Notes: generated by a model from the sequence alone, not told the origin. DNA of 45,164 bases from an uncultured Candidatus Saccharibacteria bacterium (GCA_964573155.1 CAZNIN010000003.1:1-45164), one strand, 5' to 3'; counted from the first letter of the stretch, positions 746 through 22,068 are shown. Numbers and translations: made by a program.

Positions 746-1159
746 TCAGGCTGAAACTTCCATCCACATCATTGCATGGATATCGTCAAGATTGGGCTCT
801 GGCACAGGCTGCCAGGCACTGGCATTGCCATCAGAGGTAAGAACATGACCTGTATGGTTCGCCTGATCAGGTAACAGTGCCTGGAGTGCGGCGGGCGCGT
901 TGTTCTCGCCGGTACCTCCTTGATTGATCGGCAATGGAGCGGCGAGAGAGGTAGACACCACAAGCGGCGCATCAGCCGCACCACTTAGATCACCCGACAA
1001 CTGGACTTTTCCTTTTACCTCTGTTGTGGCATCAGGAGTTGCTTCGGGAATTTCCGGCAGCTTCAGCGTTCCGTCTAAGTTATGTCCAACAAGGAGGAAA
1101 TCATTGAGGATACCGCCCCACTGGCCAACATCTTGCCCTTCTTTTGGTAATCGCGCCAT
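746..1159 (-). CDS. small phage tail-fibre-like protein (fibre-tip-like); last gene of the 6185->746 operon
   Basis: ORF track 746..1225 begins at a TTG. The first ATG (1159) gives MARLPKEGQDVGQWGGILNDFLLVGHNLDGTLK, an N-terminus I recognise from phage tail-fibre/minor-tail-like proteins. It is followed by TTEVKGKVQLSGDLSGAADAPLV and INQGGTGENNAPAALQAL motifs. No signal peptide. Start choice (1159 vs 1225) is uncertain. Confidence 0.5.
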   Translation of the reverse strand: MARLPKEGQDVGQWGGILNDFLLVGHNLDGTLKLPEIPEATPDATTEVKGKVQLSGDLSGAADAPLVVSTSLAAPLPINQGGTGENNAPAALQALLPDQANHTGHVLTSDGNASAWQPVPEPNLDDIHAMMWMEVSA

Positions 1160-1230
1160 TTTCTTTTTTCTTTTTGTTTTAGTTAAGGCTAGTGATAGTA
1201 TCGCAAGTAAAGGGGATTGTGTCAAATTGA

Positions 1231-2643
1231 CTATTCTGAATAGTCTACTTGGTACACCACTTTAAGCGTCTGCGTACTATTTTTGGTAACTGGAGTGTCG
1301 AGCTTGGCTCGTGTAGCCATTCCGTCTGGTCTAAAACGTACGACAGAATAATACGGGCTAGCGCCTATAGAAAACGAATAGCAAGGCATAGCAAACTGAT
1401 GTTCGTCTATAATATCGAAATCAGTATAATTTGCAGAGTTATCAGCGCTTATAGAAGCCATGTAAATATAGCTTTGCTGGGAAATATCCCAGCCCCACAT
1501 AGATACCTCAGGCGTTTGCTCTTCGCCACTCGTGTTGAAACTGAGCATCGTTGCGCGGTTGACCCTGTAATACCACTCATGAGTTGGGCTTCCGTAGTCA
1601 TCGTCTGAGGGCATCGTCGTCCTAACCCACAATCTTTGGTTTGTCGGCTCCCAGCATAGCCCCGCCACGGTTTGACCATAATAGGAGTTTGGACTATAAA
1701 AATATAATTCGTGCATGAAGTTGCTTATGTCGTTCCCGTTCGCAGGATTGATACACCATGCCGTCATTGTTCCACCGGATTGTGTAGTACTCCATAAGTT
1801 AGTGCCGTCAAATGCAAGATAACGATAATCACGATTTGTTGCATTAAACGGTCCTTGCTGCAAGACACCATCAGAATCAAATTTTGCAATGACTTTGTTA
1901 GCGTTTGATTCACCTATAACCCAGAGAAACTGGCCAGTTCTGTCCCACGCGAGACCTCGTATACGCGTAAAATACGGGTGTACGGTAAATGTTGCCAACG
2001 TAGGAGCGTAATCGCCATCAAGCTTGATGACCGAAAGACCTGTGCCGCCATCGTGGGCAAAAGAAAGCGTTGTGCTTGCTCGTGCGAAATAATACCATTG
2101 GTTAGTCGTTGCCCAGGTCTGCTCGATGGTGCCAGAAACAGAAAACAATGATCTCGGACCGCCAGGGATTGTTGCAGTGTAATGGGGGTGACAAAATCCA
2201 ACCGATCCAATAGTGCCATTTGCAGCCGCATCCGGCCAGGTATATACCCATTTCGTATACGTGGGCTGAGCGTCGAGCTCGGTGATACTTGGCGTTCCCC
2301 TAAGAGTGTCTATGCCAGCATATGAAGTGCCGTCGGCCCAACCAATGGTTTTGCCCGACATCATCCATTCATTCTGTGGGTCGACTTCTTTCGTCGAGTC
2401 AGTCAGGACGATTCCACCAAAAGGACTTTTTGGCTTGTCGTCGGATACACTTGCATTAATCGCAGTAAGCCCGTCAGTATATGCATTGCGCATTTCCCAT
2501 TCCAGGCGACGCAGAGCTGGCAAGGCAACGAAGTTCTTCACAGACTGCCGATACTCTAGTTTGCCGGTGTTTGCGTTATGAAGCTGTAGTGTTATTGAAC
2601 CCTCTTGATAATGTGGCAGATGTAGTCTTGATGGATAGTTCAT
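1231..2643 (-). CDS. 470-aa hypothetical protein, tandem paralog 2; C-terminal half with beta-propeller-like blades
   Basis: Long ORF whose ATG (2641-2643) directly abuts the stop of the upstream paralog (2644-2646). It shares blocks with the 2644..4050 product: TLQLHNANTGKLE/TLELRNAKTGKLE, YTKWVYTWPDAAANGTIGSVG/YTKWVFTWPDIAANGTIGSVG, RGLAWD..LWVIG/RGVAWD..LWIIG, RDYRYLAFDGTNLW/RDYRTLTFDGTNLW, TQTLKVVYQVDY/TQTLTVTYQMNY. No signal peptide or TM helix. Confidence 0.7.
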   Translation of the reverse strand: MNYPSRLHLPHYQEGSITLQLHNANTGKLEYRQSVKNFVALPALRRLEWEMRNAYTDGLTAINASVSDDKPKSPFGGIVLTDSTKEVDPQNEWMMSGKTIGWADGTSYAGIDTLRGTPSITELDAQPTYTKWVYTWPDAAANGTIGSVGFCHPHYTATIPGGPRSLFSVSGTIEQTWATTNQWYYFARASTTLSFAHDGGTGLSVIKLDGDYAPTLATFTVHPYFTRIRGLAWDRTGQFLWVIGESNANKVIAKFDSDGVLQQGPFNATNRDYRYLAFDGTNLWSTTQSGGTMTAWCINPANGNDISNFMHELYFYSPNSYYGQTVAGLCWEPTNQRLWVRTTMPSDDDYGSPTHEWYYRVNRATMLSFNTSGEEQTPEVSMWGWDISQQSYIYMASISADNSANYTDFDIIDEHQFAMPCYSFSIGASPYYSVVRFRPDGMATRAKLDTPVTKNSTQTLKVVYQVDYSE

Positions 2644-4050
2644 TTAATACGCTCCTGGATACGGATAATTCATTTGGTATGTTACGGTAAGAGTCTGAGT
2701 ATTAAGCTTTGTAACCGTACTTGGCAACAAGGCTCTTGAACCAAGGCAAGTTCCTTTGATTGTACTAACAATAAAATTACCCAAGCTACTGCTATAGCCT
2801 GGTACTAAAAATGTATTTGCGTCCGCCATATCAAAATCTGCGAGATAGTGAGACATCGTATGGATATTAATGGTGCTTCCTGTATATGCCTTGACCCATG
2901 GTTCCATGGAGCTAATAGCACCCCCCATAATAACTCCGGACGTATCAAACGGGATAATTCTCGTCTCTCGGAAACTCCAGTTTGACGAATTTCCCGTGTC
3001 ATAACGTGTATGGATCTTTACCCACAGGAACTGTCGAGTTGCATCCCATGCTAAACCAGCATGGCTTTCTGCGTATCCAGATGGAGAAGGAATAGAATAG
3101 GTAAAATTACCGACGTCACTGCCATCACTCGGATTAATGGAGTATACGGTGACCGTAGTACCGTTCTGTACTGCAGTCCATAAATTCGTGCCATCAAAAG
3201 TCAACGTACGGTAATCTCTCCCTGTTATTGCAATGGGGCTTACCGTATTGGCCCCAGACGCATTGTAGGCAGCGATATAATAATTAGTATTATTTCTACC
3301 TATTATCCATAAGCGTGAATTGCCTCCGTCCCATGCAACTCCTCTGGTGTGAGTAAATTGTCCGTTTGTATTAAATGTACTGCTGGGTTGATACTGTGAA
3401 TTCAGTACCGAAACCGTAGTAGCCGTATCGGCGTTATCCATGAATACATTCTCGATAGCAAATGACTGAGTATCGCTTGCTCGCGCAAAATAACCCCATC
3501 TTGCGGTTGTGGTGTTGGAGCTAACAAAGGTAGTCGCCCCATTGGCTGCAGAAAGCGACAAGTTTAAATCATGACGTACACTCCCCATCCAGCCAACCGA
3601 GCCAATGGTTCCATTTGCGGCAATATCGGGCCAAGTAAAAACCCACTTTGTGTACGTCGTTGTTGCCTCAGAACCATTTCCTTCAGGTGACCCCCGATAG
3701 ATACTGGGCCCCGAATAGGTTTCTTTGACTGCGTGGCCCAAAATCTCACCGGGAACCATAAACTCTTCTTCTGGGCTATTTGTGTCTTTGGTACTCGTGC
3801 TCAAGTAGAACGTATTAAACGGACTTACAGGCTGATAATCGCTGTCGCGGTTATTTTGCAGACTGTAGATTCCCGACTTAAAATAATTTCGTTGTGCCCA
3901 CTGATGCCGCTCAAGTGCAGGCGGCGCAATGAAGTTGTGGCTCTCCACTCGGTCTTCAAGTTTGCCGGTTTTGGCATTTCTCAGCTCCAAAGTAACAACA
4001 CCTTCGATCTTGTCTAACCCGGAGCCGGTATTGAATTTTTCCCTAAACAT
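2644..4050 (-). CDS. 468-aa hypothetical protein, tandem paralog 1; C-terminal half with beta-propeller-like blades
   Basis: Long ORF that is a paralog of 1231..2643 (blocks listed there). It has repeated G[LV]AWD...LW[VI] blade-like motifs: RGVAWDGGNSRLWIIG, LTFDGTNLWTAV, AGLAWDATRQFLWVKI. No signal peptide. Confidence 0.7.
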   Translation of the reverse strand: MFREKFNTGSGLDKIEGVVTLELRNAKTGKLEDRVESHNFIAPPALERHQWAQRNYFKSGIYSLQNNRDSDYQPVSPFNTFYLSTSTKDTNSPEEEFMVPGEILGHAVKETYSGPSIYRGSPEGNGSEATTTYTKWVFTWPDIAANGTIGSVGWMGSVRHDLNLSLSAANGATTFVSSNTTTARWGYFARASDTQSFAIENVFMDNADTATTVSVLNSQYQPSSTFNTNGQFTHTRGVAWDGGNSRLWIIGRNNTNYYIAAYNASGANTVSPIAITGRDYRTLTFDGTNLWTAVQNGTTVTVYSINPSDGSDVGNFTYSIPSPSGYAESHAGLAWDATRQFLWVKIHTRYDTGNSSNWSFRETRIIPFDTSGVIMGGAISSMEPWVKAYTGSTINIHTMSHYLADFDMADANTFLVPGYSSSLGNFIVSTIKGTCLGSRALLPSTVTKLNTQTLTVTYQMNYPYPGAY

Positions 4051-4120
4051 AAAGCACGCTTACCCTAAGTATACAAAAAAGCTTGTGTTTGGTATACCGA
4101 TAAGATCCTAAACACTTCAC

Positions 4121-5356
4121 TTATTCAAGTGTCACATTCTCATCAGGAGGTAACGCATACACATGAGCATCGGCCACGGAAACCGATAGTGGTAACTCTG
4201 CCTCGGCTACAATTATCTGATCTGACTGCGGATTTAGATAGGTATGTTCATCATGTATTGAAATAACCGGTATTCCATTCGGGGCCACAGCCACCTCATC
4301 ACTAGGATCTGCCAGATACGTGTAACCCTCCGTAACAGAAATGACCGGATTACCAATCGCCGCAGCATTGCTCACTTGGTCAGTTGGGGCGGACATATAC
4401 GCATAACTGTCGTTGACGGTTAGTATTTGTATCGCATTTGAGCCAGCCACTACGGAATCATCGGGAGTATAGCTGTACTGGTAGTCATGTTTTACAAAAA
4501 TAAATAGATTGTCATCACTATTAAGCGTTACCCCGTTACCAGGGTTCTCGGTAGCCTGAAACTGGTAGTTAGCCGTTGGCACAAGCAATGAGGGTACAGT
4601 GAACTGGCTGGTTGCACGCCTAAACGGCATGTAAGGATCGTATCGAAGCGCCTGCACTTCCTCGACAGATATAGCCCTATCCCAGAAATAAAACGGTCCT
4701 ATGGTCCCACGCCAAGGTGCAGTCATTGCGGGATTGTTGCCAAGATTTATGCTGGTTGCGATATCGTATTGGGTGCCTTCGCCCGTATTAAACGTCTGGA
4801 AATTAGCTGGCTTCTGTGGTACTCCGCGCAAGCCAGGCTCTGTGCGCAGCTGAACAGGGGGGATGCCAATACCATGAAACACACTAACGATGAGCCGGAC
4901 GCCATCATCTGGAAAGTCATCTACTGGCATTACCGTATACGTGTCAGCAACACTTCGTTTTTGCCAGCTCCACACCCCCACTACATCGGTATACGACTGA
5001 GTCTGCGGTAAACCAGCATTATAAAAGCTAAATATGTCCCTTTTGCCTGTGATGCCAACATCGCTTTTGACCCAAACAGCATAGCTCCACTTTTTCGGTA
5101 TTTGTTTATTGATAGTCGAGTTCAGGGCTATTGCAGTATTGTTATCAAAATGCAGGCCATAAAGTCCGCTTTCACGACGCGTCCAGCTAACATTATTTAT
5201 CTCTAGATTAGCAATTTGCCCCCAGTTACCATAATTGCGCACAAGATTGCCTCTGCCCTCATGCATAAGATAGGCCAACAAAAGCCCACGAGATAAGAAC
5301 CTCGATCCATCATCAGCACCGCGAAACGGCAAAGACGGGAAACGAATATTTGACAT
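4121..5356 (-). CDS. LamG/concanavalin-A-like lectin-fold protein with five C-terminal ~25-aa repeats
   Basis: Laminin_G_3-like pattern: GLHFDNNTAIAL ... WSYAVWVKSD ... INLGNNPAMTAPWRGTIGPFYFWDRAISVEEVQALRYDPY. No signal peptide. Only a 3-nt gap separates it from the upstream gene. Confidence 0.6.
   Translation of the reverse strand: MSNIRFPSLPFRGADDGSRFLSRGLLLAYLMHEGRGNLVRNYGNWGQIANLEINNVSWTRRESGLYGLHFDNNTAIALNSTINKQIPKKWSYAVWVKSDVGITGKRDIFSFYNAGLPQTQSYTDVVGVWSWQKRSVADTYTVMPVDDFPDDGVRLIVSVFHGIGIPPVQLRTEPGLRGVPQKPANFQTFNTGEGTQYDIATSINLGNNPAMTAPWRGTIGPFYFWDRAISVEEVQALRYDPYMPFRRATSQFTVPSLLVPTANYQFQATENPGNGVTLNSDDNLFIFVKHDYQYSYTPDDSVVAGSNAIQILTVNDSYAYMSAPTDQVSNAAAIGNPVISVTEGYTYLADPSDEVAVAPNGIPVISIHDEHTYLNPQSDQIIVAEAELPLSVSVADAHVYALPPDENVTLE
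4124..4498 (-). repeat. five degenerate tandem ~21-28-aa repeats at the C-terminus of the LamG protein
   Basis: The repeats are FVKHDYQYSYTPDDSVVAGSNAIQI / LTVNDSYAYMSAPTDQVSNAAAIGNPVI / SVTEGYTYLADPSDEVAVAPNGIPVI / SIHDEHTYLNPQSDQIIVAEAELPL / SVSVADAHVYALPPDENVTLE. The shared core is [DE]xxxYxxxPxDxV. Confidence 0.6.
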
Positions 5357-5359
5357 AAG

Positions 5360-5851
5360 CTAATACTGATACACAACAAGACTGACTACTATGTCGTCAG
5401 CACTATTAAAGAAAGTATGGTTAGTAAGGGTCACGACGTAGCCATAGAGAGCTTGTGATTCGGCCACGAATGACAGACCGATTGCCGGCAACGATACTGC
5501 TTGGCTGTTCGTAAACTGGATTGGAGCTGGAAACGATATAGACCCAACATAATAATCCATATCAGCGTCGGCAAAGCCGGCCTGGGCATTATCGAGCGTA
5601 GGTGTAACTGCTCGACTAAAAAGATGGAGGTCGACTGCACCTATACTATTGGATTTATCTACCAAAGACGCACTGGCTATGGTGCCCGAACCACCTTCAA
5701 TTCGGGTGACATTATTGAATATCATTTGATTACCAAGTGTATCTCCCTGGGTATACGTAATAGTTGCAGTAGTAAGCCCACTCGACGAAGCTTGTATGCG
5801 TCTAGCTCTTGGCCTAGGATCAACAGAATTAAGACTGCTCGTCAACGCCAT
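5360..5851 (-). CDS. 163-aa hypothetical beta-rich protein (operon gene 2)
   Basis: ORF with ATG start, a 1-nt gap to the upstream gene and a 3-nt gap to the downstream gene. Ser/Thr/Asn/Gly-rich, with no signal peptide or TM helix. I recognise no family. Confidence 0.6.
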   Translation of the reverse strand: MALTSSLNSVDPRPRARRIQASSSGLTTATITYTQGDTLGNQMIFNNVTRIEGGSGTIASASLVDKSNSIGAVDLHLFSRAVTPTLDNAQAGFADADMDYYVGSISFPAPIQFTNSQAVSLPAIGLSFVAESQALYGYVVTLTNHTFFNSADDIVVSLVVYQY

Positions 5852-5852
5852 A

Positions 5853-6185
5853 TTACGACACCTCTACCCCAGATACCGTTACGGTTATCGCATTATTCGC
5901 ACTGCTGCTGGCATATAAAGACGATCCTTCAGGCATGACTATGCTGCAATCTAACGTGCTCATACCGCGTTGAGGAATCCCATAGTCTGAAAGTATACGA
6001 TTCGAGACCTGAGCCGTACCACCAGACGCTACGACATGCACACTGACCGTTGCATCGAGAGAAGTAGTATTTGTCAGTACAATATTTTTGACAATAGCAC
6101 TCTTGTTTGCGGGCACTGTATAAAGTGTCGAACCACTCGTAGTCGCAAAATTTGTTGGAAATAGTAGTGATGGTATATAGGCCAC
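5853..6185 (-). CDS. 110-aa hypothetical beta-rich protein (operon gene 1)
   Basis: ORF starting at GTG (6183-6185). The sequence (TLYTVPANKSAIVKNIVLTNTTSLDATVSVHVV...ITVTVSGVEVS) looks like a small beta-sandwich. No signal peptide. It is the first gene after a 312-nt non-coding leader. Confidence 0.55.
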   Translation of the reverse strand: MAYIPSLLFPTNFATTSGSTLYTVPANKSAIVKNIVLTNTTSLDATVSVHVVASGGTAQVSNRILSDYGIPQRGMSTLDCSIVMPEGSSLYASSSANNAITVTVSGVEVS

Positions 6186-6440
6186 AATCTCTGCTCTACT
6201 ACTACCCCTTCGGGTTATTACCGTATAGTCCAGGTATGTTACACAGCGAGATTCTGAAATAGCACTCAGCGGATGCTGTCATTATTTCTTAATCCCTTCG
6301 GGTAACCACCTCTTCATACATACGTTGCTATATAAAAAGCATAACAAAAAAGCTATTCATCTCAAACTCACATGTCCCGTAGGCCTCTCCTCGCATGCCA
6401 TAATGTCAACACCTCAGCCTATCTGAAGGTTACTCCCAGG

Positions 6441-6482
6441 AAATAAAACCAGACGCCGCAACCTATCGTCACGGCGTCTGGT
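6441..6482 (-). terminator. rho-independent terminator downstream of the GH16 gene
   Basis: An 11-bp perfect stem (6448-6458 ACCAGACGCCG / 6472-6482 CGGCGTCTGGT) with a 13-nt loop. On the minus strand it is followed by TTTATTT (6441-6447). Confidence 0.7.
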
Positions 6483-6497
6483 AGCTCTAATGGATTC

Positions 6498-8420
6498 CTA
6501 TTTGAGCGAGCAGTAGAACCACCAACACTGCGCAGTAGCGCTCGTTCGTGCTTCGCCAGACACATTACCTGCGGCGTCACGAGCCTTAACGGTTATCGTG
6601 TACTGCTTATTAGCTTCCATTTCGGTGTAGCCGAAAGTGGTGTCCGTGGTTGTATATACCTTGCTTCCATTTGGTGATGTGACGGTAACCTGGTAGTCTC
6701 TTACCCCGACGTTATCTTTGGATGCACCCCAATTGAGCCTGAGCACATAGCGCATCCATTCAACATTCAGAGACCTTGAAAGATTTGTAGGAACACTTGG
6801 CGCCTGCTTGTCCGCAGTCGTAGAACCTCCGCCAGAAGTATCGCCGCCGCCATCCGAGGAAGGCCTAACTACTTTAAATGATTGCTTCGGAGATGTCGTA
6901 GTATTGCCCTCATTGTCTGTGGCTCGTACGTATACCGAGTAACTACCTGCGGAAAGCTCTCTCATGGTAACAGCGTACGGTGCTGATGTATCGGTACCTA
7001 GCCATTCATCATTCTGATCATAGAAGGACACGCGATCAATGCCATCGCTATCTTTGGCAGTAACACCGACCGTGACTGTAGCTGGAGCAGTATACGACGA
7101 GCTGAGATTACTGAATGTCACCGTGGGAGAACCGTTTGATTCTGTTGGTGTATCAGGCTCCGGTTCCGGCGTACCAGGGACCGTTACGCGGAATGTACGC
7201 TCATTACTCGTTGCAGACAAACCCTTCTTATCGGTGGCCTTAGCTGTGACAGTGTATGCTCCTTCCTGGAAAGTTGATGTCACGCTATACGGAGAGGTAG
7301 TATCTTCTCCAATTTTTACCGTACCGCGGTAGAACTCTACTTTCGCTATACCATCGCTATCGCTTGCAGTTGCTGTCAGTGTGACACTAGCAGGCGCAGT
7401 ATAGGCTGTCTGCAAGCTACCTAGAGAAACAGTAGGAGGTGTATTGGTTGTAGATCCACCGCCAGTGTTACTGGTGCCACCATCGCCACTACCATCTCCC
7501 AATGCATAGTAACGGAACCAATCGACTTCCATAGTCGCAGGCACACTCTTCTGACCGCCGTGCTCAGACGAAATGCCGTTGTTAAATATCACATAGTGTG
7601 GAGAGCTGGTGAGGTTACTTGAGTTACTGCCTACTTCTTTTCCATCGTAGTAGAAAGTTTGCTTACCTGCTTCACGTTTCAGACCGAAAATATGCCACCC
7701 ATCGTGTCTTGACATGACTGGATCTGTCGTACTGATACTGCGGTTGTTTGGTTCTATGTTGTAGTGATAATGCCAGTCAAGCTCCCCTCTGCTTCCACCG
7801 CCAAGTATTTCAAATATATCAATCTCGCCGTCTTGTGCCCAACCTCGGGAGTGCTGACCATTAGTCCAGAACGCTGGGAAGTTATAGCCGTACTTGCCAT
7901 CTCCAGGTATAAAGACTCTTGCTTCATAATAACCGTATTTAAAATCTTCTTTTTTGGACATAACAATGCCGGACACATATCTGGCCGGACCGTCTTCACG
8001 CGTATTACAGCCAGAGAAAGAACGCTGTTCGGCTTTTAGCTTAAGCGTACCGTTGCCCACAGAAACATTCTTGGGGTCGTAACAACTCTCTTCTCCGGTA
8101 TTAATTGGATTTGTTACGGCGCTATCACTGCCACCATGCCAATTTGGCTGCCATTTCGACAAGTCCAAACTTGTGCCGTTGAATTCGTCAGACCAAAGCA
8201 GCGCTCCAACTCCTTTGACTTCCCCAACAGGAATGGTTGCTGCCATAGAATATTTGTATGTAACAAAAGCACCGACAGCTATAAATACTGCGGCAAATAC
8301 AAAGATTCTGTTGTTGAGCAAGGATCCTAACCTACCAAATCTTGACAACGAACTCGACCCTCTGCTCTTTGTATTCGTTCTCGTGTTTCTTTTACTTTGC
8401 GTTTTTCTTGTTGCGGGCAT
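6498..8420 (-). CDS. membrane-anchored glycoside hydrolase family 16 (beta-glucanase/laminarinase-like) with two Ig-like modules and a C-terminal fibronectin-III-like module
   Basis: The GH16 catalytic motif ExDxxE is present as GEIDIFE. An N-terminal basic region is followed by one TM helix (IFVFAAVFIAVGAFVTY). Two paralogous ~80-aa modules are present (TAPASVTLTATASDSDGIAKVEFY... / TAPATVTVGVTAKDSDGIDRVSFY...). The FN3-like tail reads APSVPTNL...YTITVKARDAAGNVS. Confidence 0.85.
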   Translation of the reverse strand: MPATRKTQSKRNTRTNTKSRGSSSLSRFGRLGSLLNNRIFVFAAVFIAVGAFVTYKYSMAATIPVGEVKGVGALLWSDEFNGTSLDLSKWQPNWHGGSDSAVTNPINTGEESCYDPKNVSVGNGTLKLKAEQRSFSGCNTREDGPARYVSGIVMSKKEDFKYGYYEARVFIPGDGKYGYNFPAFWTNGQHSRGWAQDGEIDIFEILGGGSRGELDWHYHYNIEPNNRSISTTDPVMSRHDGWHIFGLKREAGKQTFYYDGKEVGSNSSNLTSSPHYVIFNNGISSEHGGQKSVPATMEVDWFRYYALGDGSGDGGTSNTGGGSTTNTPPTVSLGSLQTAYTAPASVTLTATASDSDGIAKVEFYRGTVKIGEDTTSPYSVTSTFQEGAYTVTAKATDKKGLSATSNERTFRVTVPGTPEPEPDTPTESNGSPTVTFSNLSSSYTAPATVTVGVTAKDSDGIDRVSFYDQNDEWLGTDTSAPYAVTMRELSAGSYSVYVRATDNEGNTTTSPKQSFKVVRPSSDGGGDTSGGGSTTADKQAPSVPTNLSRSLNVEWMRYVLRLNWGASKDNVGVRDYQVTVTSPNGSKVYTTTDTTFGYTEMEANKQYTITVKARDAAGNVSGEARTSATAQCWWFYCSLK

Positions 8421-8453
8421 TGTTATACCTTTATTTTATTACTGTTTTCTCTT

Positions 8454-8481
8454 AGTTTACAAAAACGTAAGCAATATGCAA
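8454..8481 (-). promoter_or_regulatory. candidate sigma70-type promoter for the GH16 gene
   Basis: On the minus strand: TTGCAT (8481-8476), a 16-nt spacer, then TAAACT (8459-8454). It lies about 35 nt upstream of the ATG at 8420. Confidence 0.35.
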
Positions 8482-8563
8482 GCTTCACCTACAGAACTAT
8501 CCTGCTTGACCTTGCGGTAAGATAATGTCGCGTATTTCATATCATTCATCTATGTGAGTAATT

Positions 8564-9991
8564 TTATTCGCGCCAAGCGCTCCATCCGCGCGTCATACCC
8601 TGACTTGTGCTTGCCCTAACTGCTGAATCGATTTCTTTCTGCAACTCCTGAAGGCTCATTGCATCACTTGGAATTTCCACACTGATGTTCTGCGCGTTAA
8701 TCTTGGTGTTCGTTGTCCATTCCATGGATGCCTCTTTTTCATCAGCTGTAATCTTCACTTTTGTTGGATATCGATTCTTTTTACTCACCCACAGCTCGAT
8801 AACTGGCTTTATATCCTCCTCCGTATCACCACCTTTACGTAAGTTATCAATTTCTTTGTCGATATCTTCCTGCTTGATTTCACAGGCGCTTTTCACCTCC
8901 GAGAATGACTCAAGCTCTACGAAATCCTTCACGAATCGTATGGCCGCCTCCTCGTTGAGGTCTAACTTGTAATGAAAACTACTGTCGCCATCAACTGTCT
9001 CGTCGGGGAGTTCTTCGGAAGCTATTGCAAACTGATTATTCTTGAATATCTCCTTGACGCGCTTTTTATCGGAGTCGGATATACGCAAATTTCCAAATGA
9101 TTCAGCGCACTTATCAAATTTCTCTTCCGACTGAACAAACCCGTATGCGGCTAGACTTTTATCATCGATTTTTATCCATTTGCCATCAATTTTCTGTATT
9201 AGCGGTTTGAAGCCCGCAGTCATTGAAGGTATGCTCGGATCAAGCTGCTCCACTTGTCGTACCGTCTTCTGGAGATCATTTAGACGCACATAGATTGCCT
9301 CATCACCCTGAACAACAACACTACCCGATACCGTCACGTCTATTTGCGGTCCAGCCTGGACACGCACGTCAGTCGTGACTTCTCCGGCTTTGCTGACTTG
9401 TTTGGCATCCATATTAACTGTCAGCTCTAATGGCATACCCGCTTCACTGGACTTCACCTTTATATTACTCATAAGGTGTAGGGGCTTTTTATCAAACACG
9501 TCTTTCATTGTATTTGCCAGCGCATCAGCTAGAACTTTTTCTGGAGAATTGTTCATTATGTTGACATACGCAAAAGCACTCCCACCTAGGCCCAATAGCA
9601 AAACTGCCGCTACGCCGACTAAAAGTTTCTTACCTGGGAGCTTACGCTTAGGTGCTTGAGGGGGAACCGAATTGCCCACATTTGGTGCCGGAGCTAAAGG
9701 TCCAGCAACATTCTGCTGTTCTGGCATAGGTGAAAATGATGAAGTTTGCTGGGGACCAAATACCTGCGGCCCGCTAGGCGCAGCAGGAGGTGTATTATTT
9801 TGTAAAGAATTTGGTGAAGAAGCCAAATCAGGTATTGGTGTATGTAGTGACGCTTCAGGCTCAGGAGCACTTGACTGCGGAGATGGCGCCGGTGCCGGCG
9901 GCGTCGCTGTTTGCTGGGGACCAAATACCTGCGGCTGCAGCGAAGCAGCGTCAGGATTATCATCCGGCGGAATATTTTGCTGTGGGTTCAT
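8564..9991 (-). CDS. single-pass membrane protein with a Pro/Gln-rich N-terminal region and a large C-terminal extracytoplasmic domain
   Basis: The N-terminal ~115 aa are P/Q/S/A-rich, with PQVFGPQQT occurring twice. A TM helix follows (LLVGVAAVLLLGLGGSAFAYV). The remaining ~330 aa are a charged mixed domain of unknown family. Confidence 0.6.
   Translation of the reverse strand: MNPQQNIPPDDNPDAASLQPQVFGPQQTATPPAPAPSPQSSAPEPEASLHTPIPDLASSPNSLQNNTPPAAPSGPQVFGPQQTSSFSPMPEQQNVAGPLAPAPNVGNSVPPQAPKRKLPGKKLLVGVAAVLLLGLGGSAFAYVNIMNNSPEKVLADALANTMKDVFDKKPLHLMSNIKVKSSEAGMPLELTVNMDAKQVSKAGEVTTDVRVQAGPQIDVTVSGSVVVQGDEAIYVRLNDLQKTVRQVEQLDPSIPSMTAGFKPLIQKIDGKWIKIDDKSLAAYGFVQSEEKFDKCAESFGNLRISDSDKKRVKEIFKNNQFAIASEELPDETVDGDSSFHYKLDLNEEAAIRFVKDFVELESFSEVKSACEIKQEDIDKEIDNLRKGGDTEEDIKPVIELWVSKKNRYPTKVKITADEKEASMEWTTNTKINAQNISVEIPSDAMSLQELQKEIDSAVRASTSQGMTRGWSAWRE
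9744..9935. repeat. exact 27-nt direct repeat inside the Pro-rich coding region (copies 9744-9770 and 9909-9935)
   Basis: GTTTGCTGGGGACCAAATACCTGCGGC occurs twice, 165 nt apart. On the minus strand both copies encode PQVFGPQQT. Confidence 0.85.
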
Positions 9992-10121
9992 AGTCTACCT
10001 TTACTTTTTGTGTTGTCAGTTAACTTTTATTAAACAGTACCGCTTTCCTTTGTCAAGTTTTTGGGCGTAATTTTCTTTTAAATACGTTACGACTTTTTCT
10101 AAAACTATTTTCCGCTCATGT

Positions 10122-10802
10122 GTGTCATGTGTAGTATTCTTGAATTATATGAAAGTACATCCAATTAGTCGCTCCGAGCTATGGCTTGCTCAAAGCGCTT
10201 TAATATTCGCTATTATCCTCCAGGTTGCCGCATGGCATTTAAGTCCTGAGTTATCATATGGGCCGCACGGAGTCATAATCATCACGGAAGTTGCCCTCCT
10301 CGTCATAATCAGCCTTACGGCCAGTACACGACACATAAGGCCGAATTCTCTTTATCGAACCCTTTCGGTAATATTGCTCGGCATCATCTCGCTTGCGAAT
10401 ATAGATTCGTTCTTTCTGGTTGTGCGACTACTTTTGACGGAGGGCATGGCGCTTTCTGGTCGTGAGCTGATTGTATCGGCAATTGCAATATTCTTGACAA
10501 ACATCGTTATTTTTTCCCTTTGGTACTGGGAGATCGACAGCCCGGGCCTAAGTGGACGAAAGTGGTCAAAGCACGATAAGGACTTTCAGTTTACGCAGCA
10601 GAACATGCGTAAAGATTTTCCTGATTGGCAGCCAAGTTTTGTTGATTATTTATATCTTTCCGTTACCAACGCAATTAATTTTGCTCCCGCTGACGCAAAA
10701 CCGATTACATCACAGGCAAAACTTCTTATGGGTCTTCAGGCGCTAATCTCTGTTTTTACACTAGCACTTATCCTGGCTCGTTCGGTCAGTATCCTAAACT
10801 AA
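10122..10802 (+). CDS. multi-pass membrane protein (possibly DUF1345-like)
   Basis: ORF with 4-5 hydrophobic helices. The C-terminal segment FVDYLYLSVTNAINFAPADAKPITSQAKLLMGLQALISVFTLALILARSV loosely recalls DUF1345. The start is uncertain (GTG 10122 or ATG 10149). Confidence 0.45.
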   Translation: MSCVVFLNYMKVHPISRSELWLAQSALIFAIILQVAAWHLSPELSYGPHGVIIITEVALLVIISLTASTRHIRPNSLYRTLSVILLGIISLANIDSFFLVVRLLLTEGMALSGRELIVSAIAIFLTNIVIFSLWYWEIDSPGLSGRKWSKHDKDFQFTQQNMRKDFPDWQPSFVDYLYLSVTNAINFAPADAKPITSQAKLLMGLQALISVFTLALILARSVSILN

Positions 10803-10816
10803 CGCGAGTTAGAAAT

Positions 10817-11980
10817 ATGCACAAAAAAATACCGCACACAAAGCATCAGCTACCAAAAAATTATCACGCGATTACCACTTCATCGTATCAGCCAAACAAA
10901 CACAATCCAGATGAACCTCAACGGAATCTGCGGCAGAAAAAGACACGCCCTGTCTGGAAAAGGATGTTCTTTTTGGTCTTCGGTATATGTTTCGGCATAT
11001 TGTTGACGATAGTGATATGGGATATTCGAAATTTTTCTAACGCGAGTCAGAAACTATTCGGCACCGATAATGCCTGGGAAGTTTTCCGCACACAAGAACT
11101 GAAGCGAACCCTTAGCGGCAGAACAAACATCCTACTGGTTGGATATTCTATCGATGATCCTGGACACGGCGGTGCCAATCTAACCGACTCGATTCTCGTT
11201 GTCAGCCTCGATAGAACAAAGCAATCGGGATTTATGCTGAGCGTACCAAGAGATCTGTATGTTGATATTCCCGGCTATGGAGCTGCAAAAATTAACGAAG
11301 CATACCAGGCAGGGGAAGCTATCAAATTTCGTGAAAGTGGACGACCTCGTGGCGGCATGGGGTTGCTACAAAAAGTCATTACTAATACCTTGGGCATAGA
11401 GCTGCATTACTATGCGCTCATAAACTACACATCCGTCAAAGAAGTCGTCGACGCACTCGGCGGCATCGACGTCACCATACAAAACGAAGATCCACGCGGC
11501 ATATACGATCCGAACTTTCCACCAGAGCAAGGAGGTCCGCTCAGGCTAGCCAATGGCGTACATACTATCGATGGCCAAACTGCGCTGCGATTAACGCGAG
11601 CGCGTGGCGCCACATATGGATCCTACGGTTTCCCACGATCAGACTTCAATCGCACACAACACCAACAGCAAGTGTTCATGGCTATCAAACACAAGCTGGA
11701 CTGGAAACTCGTCCTCGATCCCCGCACTAACGGAGAAATATTCGAAGCTGCTGGCAGTAATATCAAGACAGACCTTAAAATTGGTGAAGTCATACCGTTT
11801 TACCGGCTCATCACCAGCGTACCGAATGGTGACTTGAAACCAATCTCGCTCGGCGACATCAACAAGGAGAGCCTGTTGGTCGGCTATACAACGCCAGAAG
11901 GTCTATCAGCGCTCATACCACGCACGGGCATAGCTGATTACACTGAAATCCAATCAGTTATAAAAAACCTTGGCAAATAA
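10817..11980 (+). CDS. LytR-CpsA-Psr (LCP) family cell-wall polymer ligase, membrane anchored
   Basis: An N-terminal TM helix is followed by the LCP core: NILLVGYSIDDPGHGGANLTDSILVVSLDRTKQSGFMLSVPRDLYVDIPGYGAAKINEAYQ ... LRLTRAR. Confidence 0.85.
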   Translation: MHKKIPHTKHQLPKNYHAITTSSYQPNKHNPDEPQRNLRQKKTRPVWKRMFFLVFGICFGILLTIVIWDIRNFSNASQKLFGTDNAWEVFRTQELKRTLSGRTNILLVGYSIDDPGHGGANLTDSILVVSLDRTKQSGFMLSVPRDLYVDIPGYGAAKINEAYQAGEAIKFRESGRPRGGMGLLQKVITNTLGIELHYYALINYTSVKEVVDALGGIDVTIQNEDPRGIYDPNFPPEQGGPLRLANGVHTIDGQTALRLTRARGATYGSYGFPRSDFNRTQHQQQVFMAIKHKLDWKLVLDPRTNGEIFEAAGSNIKTDLKIGEVIPFYRLITSVPNGDLKPISLGDINKESLLVGYTTPEGLSALIPRTGIADYTEIQSVIKNLGK

Positions 11981-12147
11981 CTTTTCGTATTATCTTTCAT
12001 TTCCCCACATTTCTATATTCGTAGTCGCCACGGCCTGGCGAAGCAGAGAAAAATATGTCGACTCGACATCAAGATACTTATGATTTTATATACATGCAGT
12101 TTGCTGTCACAGAATGTACAGCGAAATACCACACATACATCAGGGTA

Positions 12148-12396
12148 TTAGTTCATATCAGGATCGATCTTGGCCGCCTGCTTTTTCGCAGAATCGTATA
12201 TTTTTCTTATCACTTTTTTAGCCTCTTCCAGTCGCTTTTCAGCCCACTCAAACTCTAGTGAAAGCACAAAAAAGGCAAGGAGACTCACCAAGACACCTGG
12301 CCCTGGCAGTGGTATCAGCACAATGCCAAGTGCAAGGAGCGGAAAACCAATAAGCGCAATGACGAGCTTTTTGAATACTATTCGAACCTTTTTCAT
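12148..12396 (-). CDS. PGPGW-motif small transmembrane protein
   Basis: GFPLLALGIVLIPLPGPGVLVSLLAFFVLSLEFEWA matches the PGPGW family pattern. The ATG at 12396 is preceded by GGAG. The ORF-track start at 12426 is a TTG. Confidence 0.6.
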   Translation of the reverse strand: MKKVRIVFKKLVIALIGFPLLALGIVLIPLPGPGVLVSLLAFFVLSLEFEWAEKRLEEAKKVIRKIYDSAKKQAAKIDPDMN

Positions 12397-17251: not shown

Positions 17252-18121
17252 TCAGGGCAACCATGCGTCTACGGATATCAGCAAAGAAAATACCAACAAA
17301 ACTACAAGAGAATGCCTAAACACTTTTCGCCCCCAATCGTCATTGTTCTTGATGGCTAAACCCTTAGCGCCAAGCCACACCCAGTACAAGCACAGGGCTG
17401 TCATGCAGAGCAGATACGTATAGCCTACATACCCAGCAACTGGAAGCGCCAAAATAGCGAGCGTAAAAGCCACAAGATACAGCAATATTTGTCTCTTAGT
17501 ATGATCAATTCCCTTTACAACAGAAATTACTGGCACACCAGCAGCTTTGTATTCCTGCCGTCTGTATACTGCTATCGCGTAAAACTCCGGCATCTGCCAA
17601 AGAAAAAGAATTACGAACAGAATTAATGCCCCCAGATCAATCCTATCCACAACCGCTACATAACCAGCAAGAATCGGGGCTGCGCCCGATACACTGCCAA
17701 CCAATGTTCCATGTATCGACATTCGCTTGGACAACATGCCATACAATACGACATACGTTACAAAACCTAGTAATCCAATTACTACGACAAGCACGTTAAC
17801 CCATACATACAAGATCATCGTTCCGACAATACCCAATACAACAGAAAATATCACCGCACCAACACCACTCACCTCTCCAGCTATAAGCGGTCGTTTTTTG
17901 GTACGTTCCATTTTTTTATCGATATCCTGATCCAGGTAGTTATTCATGACGCAGGCCGAGGCTATGACCAAACTCGTACCTATAATGACGGAAATAAACA
18001 ACAACCAATCAACATTCCCTCGGCTTGCTAGCAAAAATCCGGCTGCAGCAGTCAGTACATTGCCATACAGCACACCGGGTTTGGTCAGTCGATAATACGC
18101 GCTGATTTTAGTTCTGTTCAA
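17252..18121 (-). CDS. cyoE: protoheme IX farnesyltransferase (heme O synthase)
   Basis: YYRLTKPGVLYGNVLTAAAGFLLASRG closely parallels the E. coli CyoE N-terminus. It contains the UbiA-family motif NNYLDQDIDKKMERT. The TTG start overlaps the cyoD stop (TTGA). Confidence 0.9.
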   Translation of the reverse strand: MNRTKISAYYRLTKPGVLYGNVLTAAAGFLLASRGNVDWLLFISVIIGTSLVIASACVMNNYLDQDIDKKMERTKKRPLIAGEVSGVGAVIFSVVLGIVGTMILYVWVNVLVVVIGLLGFVTYVVLYGMLSKRMSIHGTLVGSVSGAAPILAGYVAVVDRIDLGALILFVILFLWQMPEFYAIAVYRRQEYKAAGVPVISVVKGIDHTKRQILLYLVAFTLAILALPVAGYVGYTYLLCMTALCLYWVWLGAKGLAIKNNDDWGRKVFRHSLVVLLVFSLLISVDAWLP

Positions 18122-18492
18122 AAGCCTCTGTTACTTTCTTTTAGCATGTATTCGTTAACTTCATGTGGCGGCATTTCGGGCATCATATTGTAGTTCAAAT
18201 TGTGCATAATCCATAAGCTACCAATGACGATAATCAATAAAATCGAGCCCATAAACAGAAAAGTCCATAGGTTCCAGCGCGGCTTCGACTCGTCGCCAAG
18301 GTGAAGAAAGAAATACAACTGCACCGTAACCTGCAGTAATGCCAAAACCGTAATATAGGTGATAAGTTCATTGCGAGACAACATCTGATTGACGACAGCT
18401 ATGTATGCCGCGATCGTCAAAATTACTGACCAGCAAAAGCCCATGATATACATCCTGAGCGTCGTATTGAGTTTATGTCGTGTGCTGGTCAT
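18118..18492 (-). CDS. cyoD: cytochrome o ubiquinol oxidase subunit IV
   Basis: Three TM helices, with YIMGFCWSVILTIAAYIAVV typical of CyoD. There is an ATGA overlap with cyoC, and the operon position fits. Confidence 0.85.
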   Translation of the reverse strand: MTSTRHKLNTTLRMYIMGFCWSVILTIAAYIAVVNQMLSRNELITYITVLALLQVTVQLYFFLHLGDESKPRWNLWTFLFMGSILLIIVIGSLWIMHNLNYNMMPEMPPHEVNEYMLKESNRGF

Positions 18493-21034: not shown

Positions 21035-21041
21035 ATATCCC

Positions 21042-21965: not shown

Positions 21966-22068
21966 AACGCTTACTCTCAAGCATACCATAAGCAAGTTAC
22001 TAAAAAGCAGTATCTGATGCATGCGTCAGTGTGTTACATTTAAAACATAACTAACAAGGATGCTCACT

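What the first reader, a model, noticed from the sequence alone, without database searches (positions are those of the whole stretch)
746..6185. Orphan six-gene operon of phage receptor-binding-like proteins with no virion, lysis or integration genes
Seen in sequence:
- Six same-strand ORFs run 5853-6185, 5360-5851, 4121-5356, 2644-4050, 1231-2643 and 746-1159.
- The gaps between them are 1, 3, 70, 0 and 5-71 nt.
- A 312-nt non-coding leader precedes them, and the GH16 terminator insulates them upstream.
- All six products are beta-type, rich in Ser/Thr/Asn/Gly.
- None has a signal peptide, lipobox or TM helix.

Recognisable parts:
- a LamG/ConA-like jelly roll;
- two ~470-aa paralogs with propeller-like blades;
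- a small protein with the RLPxxGxDxGxWGxILNDFL, GDLSG..APLV and NQGGTG motifs, which I associate with phage tail fibres.

Established knowledge: these folds and motifs are typical of phage baseplate and fibre receptor-binding modules.

Inference:
- The neighbouring genes are ordinary chromosomal genes (GH16 and a PH-PNPOx fusion). There is no portal, terminase, capsid, tape-measure, holin or integrase gene in 45 kb.
- The block therefore looks like a stand-alone, possibly domesticated adhesion or recognition apparatus.
- It could serve host attachment in an episymbiotic small-genome bacterium, or be a tailocin-like remnant.
- How signal-less proteins would reach the surface is unexplained, and that is part of the interest.
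Basis: partly seen in the sequence, partly recalled or inferred. Interest (0 to 1): 0.8.

Follow-up and report, generated by a model that had tools for sequence, protein, structure and literature searches.

The report
Domesticated phage receptor-binding gene cassette
A small clade of uncultured Saccharibacteria has kept a chromosomal set of phage tail-fibre and receptor-binding genes, with no other virus genes nearby, for a long evolutionary time; in most relatives the set is interleaved with Tat folded-protein export genes, which suggests how it could reach the cell surface.

Summary
The six ORFs, their spacing, the 312-nt leader and the upstream terminator are all confirmed. The window is Saccharibacteria chromosome made of housekeeping genes, with no virion, lysis or integration genes.

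**Phage relatives**
- g4/g5 are full-length homologs of the last tail gene of siphoviruses, the gene after Dit–Tal.
- g6 is a short DUF5907 tail fibre.
- g1 and g2 belong to families found in phage tail modules.
- g3 (LamG-like domain plus five repeats) is specific to the cassette.
- No viral contig examined carries more than one of these families.

**Conservation**
- The same gene order occurs in at least nine Saccharibacteria species, in different neighbourhoods.
- ORFs are intact, synonymous sites are saturated and dN is low.
- This is a domesticated module, not a decaying prophage.

**New finding: Tat linkage**
- In 10 of 13 distinct related loci, a small protein of about 80 aa with a twin-arginine-like motif is translationally coupled to g6.
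- In those loci tatA, tatC and a histidine kinase flank the cassette in three different arrangements.
- This suggests Tat "hitch-hiker" export of folded fibre complexes.
- The window's own lineage lacks the small protein, the tat genes and the kinase locally.

A role in surface adhesion is inferred, not shown.

The parts
6448..6482 (-). Intrinsic-terminator-like hairpin (15 bp stem, 9 GC pairs, T-run) ending the upstream GH16-like gene. It insulates the cassette from read-through.
   Evidence: sequence read
6186..6497 (-). 312-nt non-coding leader. It contains a promoter-like site at 6365-6338 (TTGAGA-16-TATGCT with a TG extension) whose -10 block TGTTATGCT is conserved in the ortholog leader of L003. 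It also contains a ~90-nt window-specific insertion carrying two ACCCGAAGGG copies (6294-6303 and 6206-6215).
5853..6185 (-). g1, 110 aa, all-beta small protein. It belongs to a family that is widespread in phage tail modules (phrog_1276), for example Streptomyces phage Spernnie gp17, which lies between the Tal-like minor tail protein and the tail fibre gene.
   Evidence: (HMM E=5e-15)
5360..5851 (-). g2, 163 aa, jelly-roll beta-sandwich of the TNF/C1q/single-jelly-roll class. It is the most conserved cassette member. Distant relatives lie in phage tail modules just upstream of large fibre or glycosidase-type genes.
   Evidence: E=4e-14; pLDDT 88
4121..5356 (-). g3, 411 aa. It has an N-terminal LamG/ConA-like domain of about 250 aa, an invariant DPYxPFR motif, and five degenerate C-terminal repeats of the form IxIxDxYxYxxxPxD. 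It is specific to the cassette: only 8 full-length clusters at 50% identity among 1.84 billion representatives, and no phage match.
2644..4050 (-). g4, 468 aa. It has a phage-type N-terminal domain of about 165 aa, a beta-propeller, and conserved C-terminal strands. It is a paralog of g5 (38% identity) and the more variable of the two; it is duplicated in some species.
   Evidence: (pLDDT 86, pTM 0.87)
1231..2643 (-). g5, 470 aa, same architecture as g4. The g4/g5 family is homologous over its full length to Geobacillus phage GBSV1 gp33 and to a 441-aa protein on an IMG/VR siphovirus contig. Both of those are the last tail gene after Dit and Tal.
   Evidence: E=3e-41; E=7e-43
1197..1225 (-). 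Best promoter-like match in the region (TTGACA-17-GATACT with TG, 10 of 12), in the 71-nt g5-g6 gap. In most relatives this position is occupied by the small Tat-motif gene.
746..1159 (-). g6, 137 aa, a short tail-fibre-like protein. It has an N-terminal module MARLPxPGxDxGxWGxxLNDFLxVxHNxDGTLK that also heads viral proteins of 63-1309 aa (the shortest likely a fragment), one DUF5907-type repeat module (1-3 in orthologs), and a conserved C-terminal DDxxAxxWMEV.
   Evidence: (PF19264, 34.3 bits against a cut-off of 27)

Best explanation
**What it is.** The block is a phage tail-tip (receptor-binding) module that was captured by an ancestor of a small clade of Saccharibacteria and has been kept under purifying selection as an ordinary chromosomal operon.

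**What it probably makes.** I propose that its products assemble in the cytoplasm into a multi-subunit, lectin-like complex:
- two propeller-headed receptor-binding-type proteins (g4, g5);
- a short DUF5907 fibre (g6);
- a LamG-plus-repeat adaptor (g3);
- two small beta-sandwich proteins (g1, g2).

**What it probably does.** The complex would be displayed on the cell surface and recognise the envelope of another cell, most plausibly the bacterial host of this epibiont.

**How it probably gets out.** In the ancestral form, which most relatives retain, the operon is tatA-g1-g2-g3-g4-g5-s82-g6(-tatC). Here s82 is a protein of about 80 aa carrying [ST]-R-[RK]-x-F-L followed by a hydrophobic helix, and it is translationally coupled to g6. 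The folded, signal-less proteins would be carried across the membrane by the Tat translocase, hitch-hiking on s82, and might be tethered by it.

**The window's version.** It is a derived six-gene form that has moved away from tat, the histidine kinase and s82. It must either use copies encoded elsewhere in the genome or use another route.

**Shown:** phage ancestry of g1, g2, g4, g5 and g6; the orphan chromosomal setting; conservation and purifying selection; the physical Tat linkage in relatives.

**Inferred:** formation of a complex, surface location, Tat hitch-hiking, and the binding target.
For: **Phage ancestry**
- The g4/g5 HMM matches GBSV1 gp33 over its full length (E=3e-41). gp33 follows Dit and the Tal-type tail protein and precedes holin.
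- A second case is L051, ordered major tail protein, tape measure, Dit, Tal, two small ORFs, the g4/g5-like gene, then an integrase.
- The g4 model shows a propeller, and its best full-length structural matches are siphovirus proteins.
- g6 passes the DUF5907 threshold. Orthologs hit BppL_N and a minor-tail PHROG at 1e-10. The four best PDB hits are all phage fibre or nozzle proteins. The N-terminal module heads proteins on 20 viral contigs.
- g1 lies between Tal and the tail fibre gene in Streptomyces phages and occurs on 28 IMG/VR contigs.
- g2 lies in phage tail modules.

**Domestication**
- The gene order is identical in at least 9 GTDB Saccharibacteria species and in further metagenome contigs.
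- No phage genes occur in the 10-kb flanks, including on contigs of 160 kb and 700 kb.
- dS is saturated while dN is 0.1-0.44. Protein identity between the window and L003 is 52-81%, against 74% for flanking genes.
- GC content is native, and no PADLOC defence model is hit.
- The variation is of the kind seen in receptor-binding genes: 2-3 g4/g5 paralogs, 1-3 g6 repeat modules, and a propeller more variable than the anchoring ends.

**Tat link**
- s82 is present in 10 of 13 distinct loci, always abutting or overlapping the g6 start. The motif plus a hydrophobic region reached my scan threshold in eight of those loci.
- s82 is a distant match to NCBIfam NF038009, 'twin-arginine translocation system-associated protein' (E down to 4e-15).
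- tatA lies 25-35 nt upstream of g1 on the same strand in five loci. tatC overlaps the g6 end in four loci, and tatA-tatC follow g6 in one. That makes three arrangements in all.
- tatA and tatC pass their NCBIfam cut-offs.
- Tat was reported as rare in Saccharibacteria (PMC6031116).
- There is precedent for small Tat-signal subunits that escort signal-less partners (PMC6719666, PMC4273604).
- There is precedent for a bacterium that attacks other bacteria using phage-fibre-like adhesins (PMC10769870).
Against: - The window itself has no tatA, tatC, s82 or kinase next to the cassette, and none was detected anywhere in its 45 kb. L003 and L010 lack them too, yet their cassettes are intact. The cassette therefore does not need physical linkage to Tat, and the link could be inherited neighbourhood rather than function.
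- No cassette protein has a twin-arginine signal of its own.
- s82 scores below the curated cut-offs of both NF038009 (22-56 bits against 100) and the Tat-signal model TIGR01409 (12-13 bits against 16.7). It could be a general Tat accessory protein or an unrelated small Tat substrate.
- A complex of several trimeric ~50-kDa proteins may be too large for Tat.
- No hub or anchor protein (Dit, Tal or gp27-like) was recognised, so what the fibre N-terminal module docks onto is unknown.
- No expression, localisation or binding data exist, and all the organisms are uncultured MAGs.
- Whole genomes could not be searched for a virion gene cluster elsewhere.
Confidence: 0.45

Rival explanations
1. The cassette is a fibre and receptor-binding locus acting in trans for a phage-like particle (a gene transfer agent, a tailocin or a resident prophage) whose head and tail genes lie elsewhere in the genome. 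The proteins would assemble onto that particle in the cytoplasm and leave the cell by lysis, which would explain why they have no signal peptides.
For: - Every recognisable part is of tail-tip type, and none is a hub, tube or capsid protein.
- The g6 N-terminal module is the one that heads fibres of many viral contigs, which implies a docking partner of phage type.
- None of g1-g6 has a signal peptide or transmembrane helix.
- From my own knowledge: the Rhodobacter gene transfer agent encodes its tail fibres and head spikes at loci separate from the main structural cluster.
Against: - No phage structural gene occurs in the 45-kb window or in the 10-kb flanks of more than 10 related loci, two of which are on contigs of 160 kb and 700 kb.
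- The repeated interleaving with tatA, tatC and a Tat-motif protein is unexplained by a lysis-release model.
- These genomes are very small, and a complete soil Saccharibacteria genome with Tat was reported to have no prophage (PMC6031116). That is a different organism, however.
Confidence: 0.2
2. The cassette makes a functional phage-derived binding complex, as in the best explanation, but Tat is not its export route. The adjacency to tat, the kinase and s82 would be inherited neighbourhood, and the proteins would act in the cytoplasm or reach the outside another way, such as a type IV secretion system, vesicles or lysis of a subpopulation.
For: - Three lineages (the window, L003 and L010) keep an intact cassette without tat, the kinase or s82 nearby, and this loss happened at least twice.
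- g1-g6 carry no RR signal.
- s82 resembles a family that NCBI names simply as Tat-system-associated, so it may belong to the tat locus rather than to the cassette.
Against: - s82 sits inside the cassette, between g5 and g6, with its stop overlapping the g6 start in every locus that has it.
- Tat genes remain adjacent through three different rearrangements.
- Tat is the one known pathway that suits pre-folded oligomers (PMC6708511, listed).
Confidence: 0.2
3. The cassette is an anti-phage or phage-interference system. Captured tail-tip proteins would stay in the cytoplasm and poison or mis-direct tail assembly of infecting phages, or act as decoys.
For: - The proteins are phage-derived structural proteins with no export signals, and they are conserved in a host genome.
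- The neighbouring kinase gives weak hits to a candidate PADLOC family, PDC-M43B (E=3e-7, ATPase domain only).
Against: - No PADLOC hit for any of g1-g6.
- A six- or seven-gene set with lectin-like heads, variable repeat number and paralog expansion looks like a binding apparatus rather than an assembly inhibitor.
- The Tat linkage is unexplained.
- No nearby defence genes.
Confidence: 0.07
4. The block is a non-functional remnant of a decayed prophage tail module.
For: - All relatives outside the clade are phage genes.
- One related locus, L089, contains a frameshifted partial duplicate of the cassette.
Against: - All ORFs are intact, with the lengths of g1 (110 aa) and g2 (163-164 aa) conserved across at least 9 species that differ at saturated synonymous sites.
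- dN is 0.1-0.44, and divergence equals that of flanking housekeeping genes.
- Composition is native.
Confidence: 0.03

Closest known systems
Siphovirus tail-tip receptor-binding module: the gene or genes after Dit and Tal, e.g. Geobacillus phage GBSV1 gp33 and the IMG/VR contig 3300027566_000351
   Same: - g4/g5 are full-length homologs (E=3e-41 and 7e-43) of the last tail gene in these phages.
- g1, g2 and g6 belong to families found next to fibre genes in other phages.
- The genes are tightly packed on one strand and encode signal-less beta proteins.
   Different: - There is no tape measure, Dit, Tal, tube, capsid, lysis or integrase gene.
- The combination g1+g2+g3+g4/5+g6 was found on no viral contig.
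- g3 has no viral relative.
- The cassette is vertically inherited in a cellular chromosome, and in most lineages it is interleaved with tat genes.
Bdellovibrio bacteriovorus MAT (mosaic adhesive trimer) fibres (PMC10769870)
   Same: [quoted passage not shown] These proteins are displayed on its surface to recognise prey envelopes. Functionally this is what I propose for the cassette.
   Different: - MAT proteins are single long polypeptides, each with its own signal peptide followed by a conserved ~130-aa domain. Many end in an S74 chaperone-protease.
- Here there are six or seven separate short proteins, with no signal peptides and no S74 domain detected.
- The fold set differs (propeller, LamG, jelly roll, DUF5907).
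- There is no sequence relationship between the two.
Tat 'hitch-hiker' export complexes, e.g. Burkholderia FAD-glucose dehydrogenase gamma-alpha (PMC6719666) and E. coli PaoABC (PMC4273604)
   Same: A small subunit with a twin-arginine signal is co-encoded with signal-less partners that fold and assemble in the cytoplasm and are exported together. s82 is small, carries [ST]R[RK]xFL plus a hydrophobic helix, and is translationally coupled to g6.
   Different: - Known hitch-hiker cargos are cofactor-containing redox enzymes, not phage-derived fibres.
- s82 is below the curated Tat-signal threshold and has no obvious cleavage site.
- Export is untested.
- The window copy lacks s82 and tat genes.
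Phage tail-like bacteriocins (tailocins), contractile injection systems, and gene-transfer-agent fibre loci
   Same: These are phage tail components retained and used by cells, with fibres that determine target specificity.
   Different: - All of them include tube, tape-measure or sheath and baseplate-hub genes, and usually lysis or dedicated release genes. None of those is present here.
- A gene transfer agent with a remote structural cluster cannot be excluded with the data to hand.

Membership tests
Prophage or phage tail module | Receptor-binding or fibre genes homologous to those of phages | tested here: met
   g4/g5 against GBSV1 gp33 E=3e-41 and L051 E=7e-43; g1 against Spernnie gp17 E=5e-15; g2 against RHph_N38 gp036 E=4e-14; g6 matches DUF5907, BppL_N and a minor-tail PHROG.
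Prophage or phage tail module | Contiguity with tape measure, Dit, Tal and tube genes, and with capsid, portal and terminase, lysis, or integrase genes | tested here: not met
   Pfam scans of the other long ORFs of the 45-kb window show only cellular genes. The same holds for the called genes in the 10-kb flanks of L003-L007 and L089-L091.
Tailocin, contractile injection system or T6SS | Tube and sheath (or tape measure), a gp25/gp27-type baseplate hub, and a release mechanism | tested here: not met
   No Pfam or PHROG hit of these kinds for g1-g6 or their neighbours. g2 is a jelly roll and g4 a propeller by structure prediction.
Gene-transfer-agent accessory fibre locus | A head-tail structural cluster elsewhere in the same genome | not testable with these tools
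Bdellovibrio MAT fibre superfamily | A single polypeptide with a signal peptide followed by a conserved ~130-aa beta-rich domain and a trimeric beta-helical stalk, often with a C-terminal S74 domain (PMC10769870) | tested here: not met
   None of g1-g6 has a hydrophobic N-terminus. There is no S74 or other matching Pfam hit. The architecture is multi-gene.
Tat-exported hitch-hiker complex | tatA and tatC present and a co-encoded subunit with a twin-arginine signal peptide | tested here: inconclusive
   In related loci, tatA (54.7 bits against a cut-off of 53.9) and tatC (157 against 132.7) are adjacent in three arrangements. s82 has [ST]R[RK]xFL plus a hydrophobic region but scores only 12-13 bits against 16.7 for TIGR01409. 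In the window none of these is present near the cassette or anywhere in the 45 kb.
Tat-exported hitch-hiker complex | Tat-dependent export of signal-less partners demonstrated | not testable with these tools
   This needs an experiment.
DUF5907 repeat proteins (PF19264) | Score above the Pfam gathering threshold | tested here: met
   g6 scores 34.3 bits against 27. The L015 ortholog scores 69 bits with 3 repeats.
Laminin_G_3 / ConA-like lectin (PF13385) | Score above the Pfam gathering threshold, or a confirmed fold | tested here: inconclusive
   Window g3 scores 20 bits against 27.6, on the C-terminal motif only. PF13385 is on record for several orthologs. The exhaustive HMMER scan hits the same ~190-250 motif region in hundreds of large proteins. 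The fold was not modelled.
Known anti-phage defence systems (PADLOC) | A match to any PADLOC model | tested here: not met
   No hits for g1-g6 at E<=0.01.

The most novel reading that the evidence does not exclude
A clade of epibiotic Saccharibacteria has turned a phage baseplate-periphery module into a host-recognition organelle that is assembled in the cytoplasm and exported whole by a dedicated Tat system. It would ride on, and be anchored by, an ~80-aa twin-arginine protein. That would be a new way of domesticating phage parts: a receptor-binding complex without any tail. It would also be a new class of Tat cargo, and it would add a candidate host-specificity determinant in Patescibacteria besides type IV pili.
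Probability: 0.25. Interest if true: 0.85.

Novelty: new variant of a known kind. Interest (0 to 1): 0.66.

Why it matters
How ultrasmall epibiotic bacteria find and hold the right host is largely unknown beyond type IV pili. This cassette is a conserved, selectable and modular set of phage-type receptor-binding proteins in such organisms, so it is a concrete candidate for a host-recognition device.

The Tat interleaving gives a testable answer to how phage-style proteins, which must fold and oligomerise before export, could be put on a cell surface. If that is confirmed, it would broaden both the catalogue of phage-part domestications and the known range of Tat cargo.

If instead the cassette serves a particle encoded elsewhere, it would point to gene-transfer-agent-like or tailocin-like elements in Patescibacteria. 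That would also be new.

Tried and rejected
**Searches that found nothing useful**
- Sequence-profile searches of the PDB with g1 (narrow and broad profiles), g2, g3 and the g4/g5 N-domain gave nothing meaningful.
- tblastn of g3 against phage genomes found no match.
- IMG/VR scans with g2 and g3 found no relatives.
- Tandem Repeats Finder on the g3 repeat region found nothing, because the repeats are degenerate at DNA level.
- Rfam found only the tRNA, and no known RNA element in the leader.
- Literature searches for Saccharibacteria with 'tail fiber', 'phage tail-like' or 'DUF5907' found no description of this cassette.
- Cluster-member names gave only 'hypothetical protein' and 'Candidatus Saccharibacteria bacterium'.
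- The window's exact g4 protein could not be looked up in the contig index, so the 7.7 kb of the source contig outside the window was not seen.

**A whole-module ancestor in viruses**
- The five cassette HMMs were run over 58 viral loci. No contig carries more than one family.

**Remote homology of phage neighbours**
- hhalign of g3 against the LamG or ~250-aa proteins that follow g2-like genes on phage-like contigs matched only the generic LamG C-terminal motif (E=0.012) or nothing.
- The 105-aa and 168-aa ORFs between Tal and the g4/g5-like gene in L051 have the sizes and order of g1 and g2, but show no detectable similarity in any pairing.

**Other**
- I considered the g2 N-terminus (…PRPxxRR…) as a Tat signal and rejected it. 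The RR is not invariant (AR and KR variants occur), no hydrophobic region follows, and residues 15-22 form a strand of the confident fold.
- The TTG-extended start of g6 at 1225 was rejected because no ortholog has it.
- dN/dS ratios could mostly not be computed because dS is saturated.

Full report
**1.
- One search lists six minus-strand ORFs at exactly the stated coordinates: g1 5853-6185, g2 5360-5851, g3 4121-5356, g4 2644-4050, g5 1231-2643 and g6 746-1159. The gaps between them are 1, 3, 70, 0 and 71 nt.
- The alternative TTG start of g6 at 1225 is not used, because all orthologs begin MARLP, MPRLP or MSRLP.
- The leader is 312 nt. A 15-bp GC-rich hairpin with a T-run at 6482-6448 follows the stop of the upstream gene.
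- That upstream gene is GH16-like at sub-threshold level and carries Big_7 domains.
- None of g1-g6 has a hydrophobic segment: the maximum Kyte-Doolittle value over 19 residues is 1.28 or less, against 1.93 and 2.26 in the two neighbouring envelope proteins.
- The motifs quoted for g6 are present.

**2. Context.**
- The rest of the window is ordinary chromosome. It encodes cyo-type oxidase subunits and UbiA, LytR, a CHASE histidine kinase with a response regulator, Crp, Ni-SOD, TrmD, S16, RNase III, NusB, LeuRS, Ddl, a Mur ligase, LigA and one tRNA-Ala.
- GC content is uniform across the window.
- Full-length relatives of g4/g5 in one-genome-per-species GTDB contigs come only from Candidatus Saccharibacteria MAGs, plus one unclassified MAG that is syntenic with the window. 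The organism is therefore a Saccharibacterium.

**3. The cassette is conserved and selected.**
- HMM mapping shows the order g1-g2-g3-g4(x1-2)-g5-[small gene]-g6 in every sufficiently long locus.
- The neighbourhoods differ: a GH16-like gene and PH-PNPOx in the window and L003; a kinase and a methyltransferase in L005; tat and kinase genes in the others.
- g1 is always 110 aa and g2 is 163-164 aa in the aligned loci.
- Synonymous sites are saturated in almost every pairwise comparison, while dN is 0.1-0.44. Between the window and L003 the cassette proteins are 52-81% identical, against 74% for the flanking GH16-like and LytR genes.
- This is long-term vertical inheritance under purifying selection.
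- The family is rare. There are 22 clusters for g4/g5 and about 34 cassette-type clusters for g2 among 5.8 billion proteins. Full-length g3 forms 8 clusters at 50% identity among 1.84 billion representatives.

**4. What the proteins are.**
- *g4 and g5* are paralogs (38% identity).
  - The AF2 model of g4 (pLDDT 86, pTM 0.87) has an N-terminal domain, a beta-propeller and C-terminal strands.
  - Foldseek finds YncE, WD40 and NHL propellers in the PDB. In BFVD its best matches, which run the full length, are uncharacterised siphovirus proteins.
  - The family HMM matches Geobacillus phage GBSV1 gp33 through both its N- and C-terminal parts (E=3e-41). gp33 is the last tail gene, after Dit and the Tal-type tail protein and before holin.
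  - An IMG/VR contig repeats this layout: major tail protein, tape measure, Dit, Tal, two small ORFs, the g4/g5-like gene, then an integrase.
  - The anchoring ends are slightly more conserved than the propeller (0.44-0.46 against 0.35).
- *g6* passes the DUF5907 threshold.
  - Orthologs have 1-3 repeat modules. They hit BppL_N and a minor-tail PHROG.
  - The four best PDB sequence matches are all phage fibre or nozzle proteins (best E=0.0055).
  - The first ~33 residues head viral proteins of 63-1309 aa on 20 viral contigs.
- *g1* matches phrog_1276. It matches 42 phage records, mostly Streptomyces phages, where it lies between the Tal-like minor tail protein and the tail fibre gene, and it matches 28 IMG/VR contigs.
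- *g2* is a confident jelly roll (pLDDT 88).
  - Its structural matches are low-TM hits to single-jelly-roll capsid proteins and to C1q/TNF-like heads and lectins.
  - Its relatives lie in tail regions of N4-like Rhizobium phages and of phage-like contigs.
- *g3* has a LamG-type motif, an invariant DPYxPFR and five degenerate repeats. It has no viral relative.

**5. It is not a phage, and no phage has the set.** The five cassette HMMs were run over 58 viral loci and found no contig with more than one family. PADLOC gives no hit for any of the six proteins.

**6. Tat linkage, the new element.**
- In 10 of 13 distinct loci, a gene of 76-85 aa (s82) lies between g5 and g6, with its stop abutting or overlapping the g6 start.
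- The family carries [ST]-R-[RK]-x-F-L followed by a hydrophobic stretch of about 18 residues and a conserved GAYGxSxYSG tail.
- It is a distant, sub-threshold match to NCBIfam NF038009, 'twin-arginine translocation system-associated protein', and to the Tat-signal model.
- tatA lies 25-35 nt upstream of g1 on the same strand in L013, L014, L089, L090 and L091, with tatC and a divergent histidine kinase just beyond it.
- In L006 and L093, tatA and the kinase lie upstream and tatC overlaps the end of g6. L012 and L015 show the same g6-tatC overlap. In L016, tatA-tatC follow g6.
- So adjacency has survived at least two rearrangements.
- Starr et al. reported Tat as exceptional among the Saccharibacteria analysed in 2018 (PMC6031116).
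- The window, L003 and L010 lack s82, tat and the kinase locally. Identity matrices place L010 with L005, L013 and L014, so the loss happened at least twice.

**7. Mechanism.**
- Phage fibres and receptor-binding proteins fold and oligomerise in the cytoplasm. Tat is the pathway that moves folded, oligomeric proteins, and it does move signal-less partners bound to a signal-bearing small subunit (PMC6719666, PMC4273604).
- I therefore propose a cytoplasmically assembled binding complex that is exported by hitch-hiking on s82 and possibly anchored by s82's uncleaved helix. Its job would be recognition of another cell's envelope.
- Bdellovibrio's MAT fibres show that a bacterium living off other bacteria can use phage-fibre-like adhesins in this way (PMC10769870).
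- Complex formation, surface exposure, Tat dependence and the ligand are all inferences. The window's copy must rely on components encoded elsewhere or on another route.
- The rival explanations are:
  - a fibre locus serving a particle encoded elsewhere in the genome;
  - the same binding complex but without Tat involvement;
  - phage interference;
  - an inert prophage remnant, which the conservation data effectively exclude.

**8. Novelty.**
- No paper in the searchable library describes this cassette.
- It is a new variant of phage-part domestication. It contains only receptor-binding and peripheral components, spread over several genes, fixed in a reduced genome, and usually embedded in a tat locus.
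- The evidence is entirely computational, and the clade is small and uncultured. This limits the score.

Noticed in passing
L089:7487-17857: One related contig carries g1 followed by frameshifted fragments of g2, g3, g4 and g5 (7823-12284), and then an intact g3-g4-g5-s82-g6 set. This looks like a tandem partial duplication in which one copy is decaying and no intact g2 remains. It could instead be a strain-mixture assembly artefact.
   Followed up: partly
window 6206-6215 and 6294-6303 (minus strand): Two exact copies of ACCCGAAGGG lie 88 nt apart in the cassette leader (expected 0.01 per window). They sit inside a ~90-nt insertion that is absent from the L003 leader, and the motif occurs upstream of g1 in no other locus. 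It may be a lineage-specific operator or small hairpins.
   Followed up: partly
L090:4517-6133 and its equivalents in L005, L006, L011, L013, L014, L089, L091 and L093: A histidine-kinase-like gene of 520-645 aa always lies divergently just upstream of the cassette, between tatC and tatA where those are present. No response regulator was seen in the gene calls for the loci that have them. Its ATPase domain gives weak PADLOC PDC-M43B hits. It could regulate the cassette.
   Followed up: no
window 1197-1225 (minus strand): The best sigma-70-like match in the region (TTGACA-17-GATACT with a TG extension) lies in the g5-g6 gap, exactly where relatives carry the small Tat-motif gene. g6 may be transcribed separately in this lineage.
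   Followed up: no
L051:9128-9955: In the siphovirus contig that carries a g4/g5-like gene, two ORFs of 105 and 168 aa sit between Tal and that gene. Their sizes and order match g1 (110 aa) and g2 (163 aa), but hhalign finds no similarity.
   Followed up: yes
window 17252-22022 and 25613-26312: This Saccharibacterium encodes a cyo-type quinol oxidase operon (COX1, COX2, COX3 and UbiA) and a nickel superoxide dismutase next to an S26-type peptidase. These point to an aerobic lifestyle, which is unusual for the group.
   Followed up: no
window 8564-9991 (minus strand): A 475-aa protein has a proline-rich N-terminal third, one strongly hydrophobic helix near residue 123 and no Pfam match. Family-less genes of 490 and 475 aa occur near the cassette in L003 and L089, but homology was not tested.
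   Followed up: no
L013:7265-11242 and L014:7260-11248: Two species carry three g4/g5 paralogs instead of two. g6 ranges from 130 to 294 aa through 1-3 repeat modules, or through inserted GGTG-type segments. This is the kind of copy-number and length variation seen in receptor-binding genes.
   Followed up: partly
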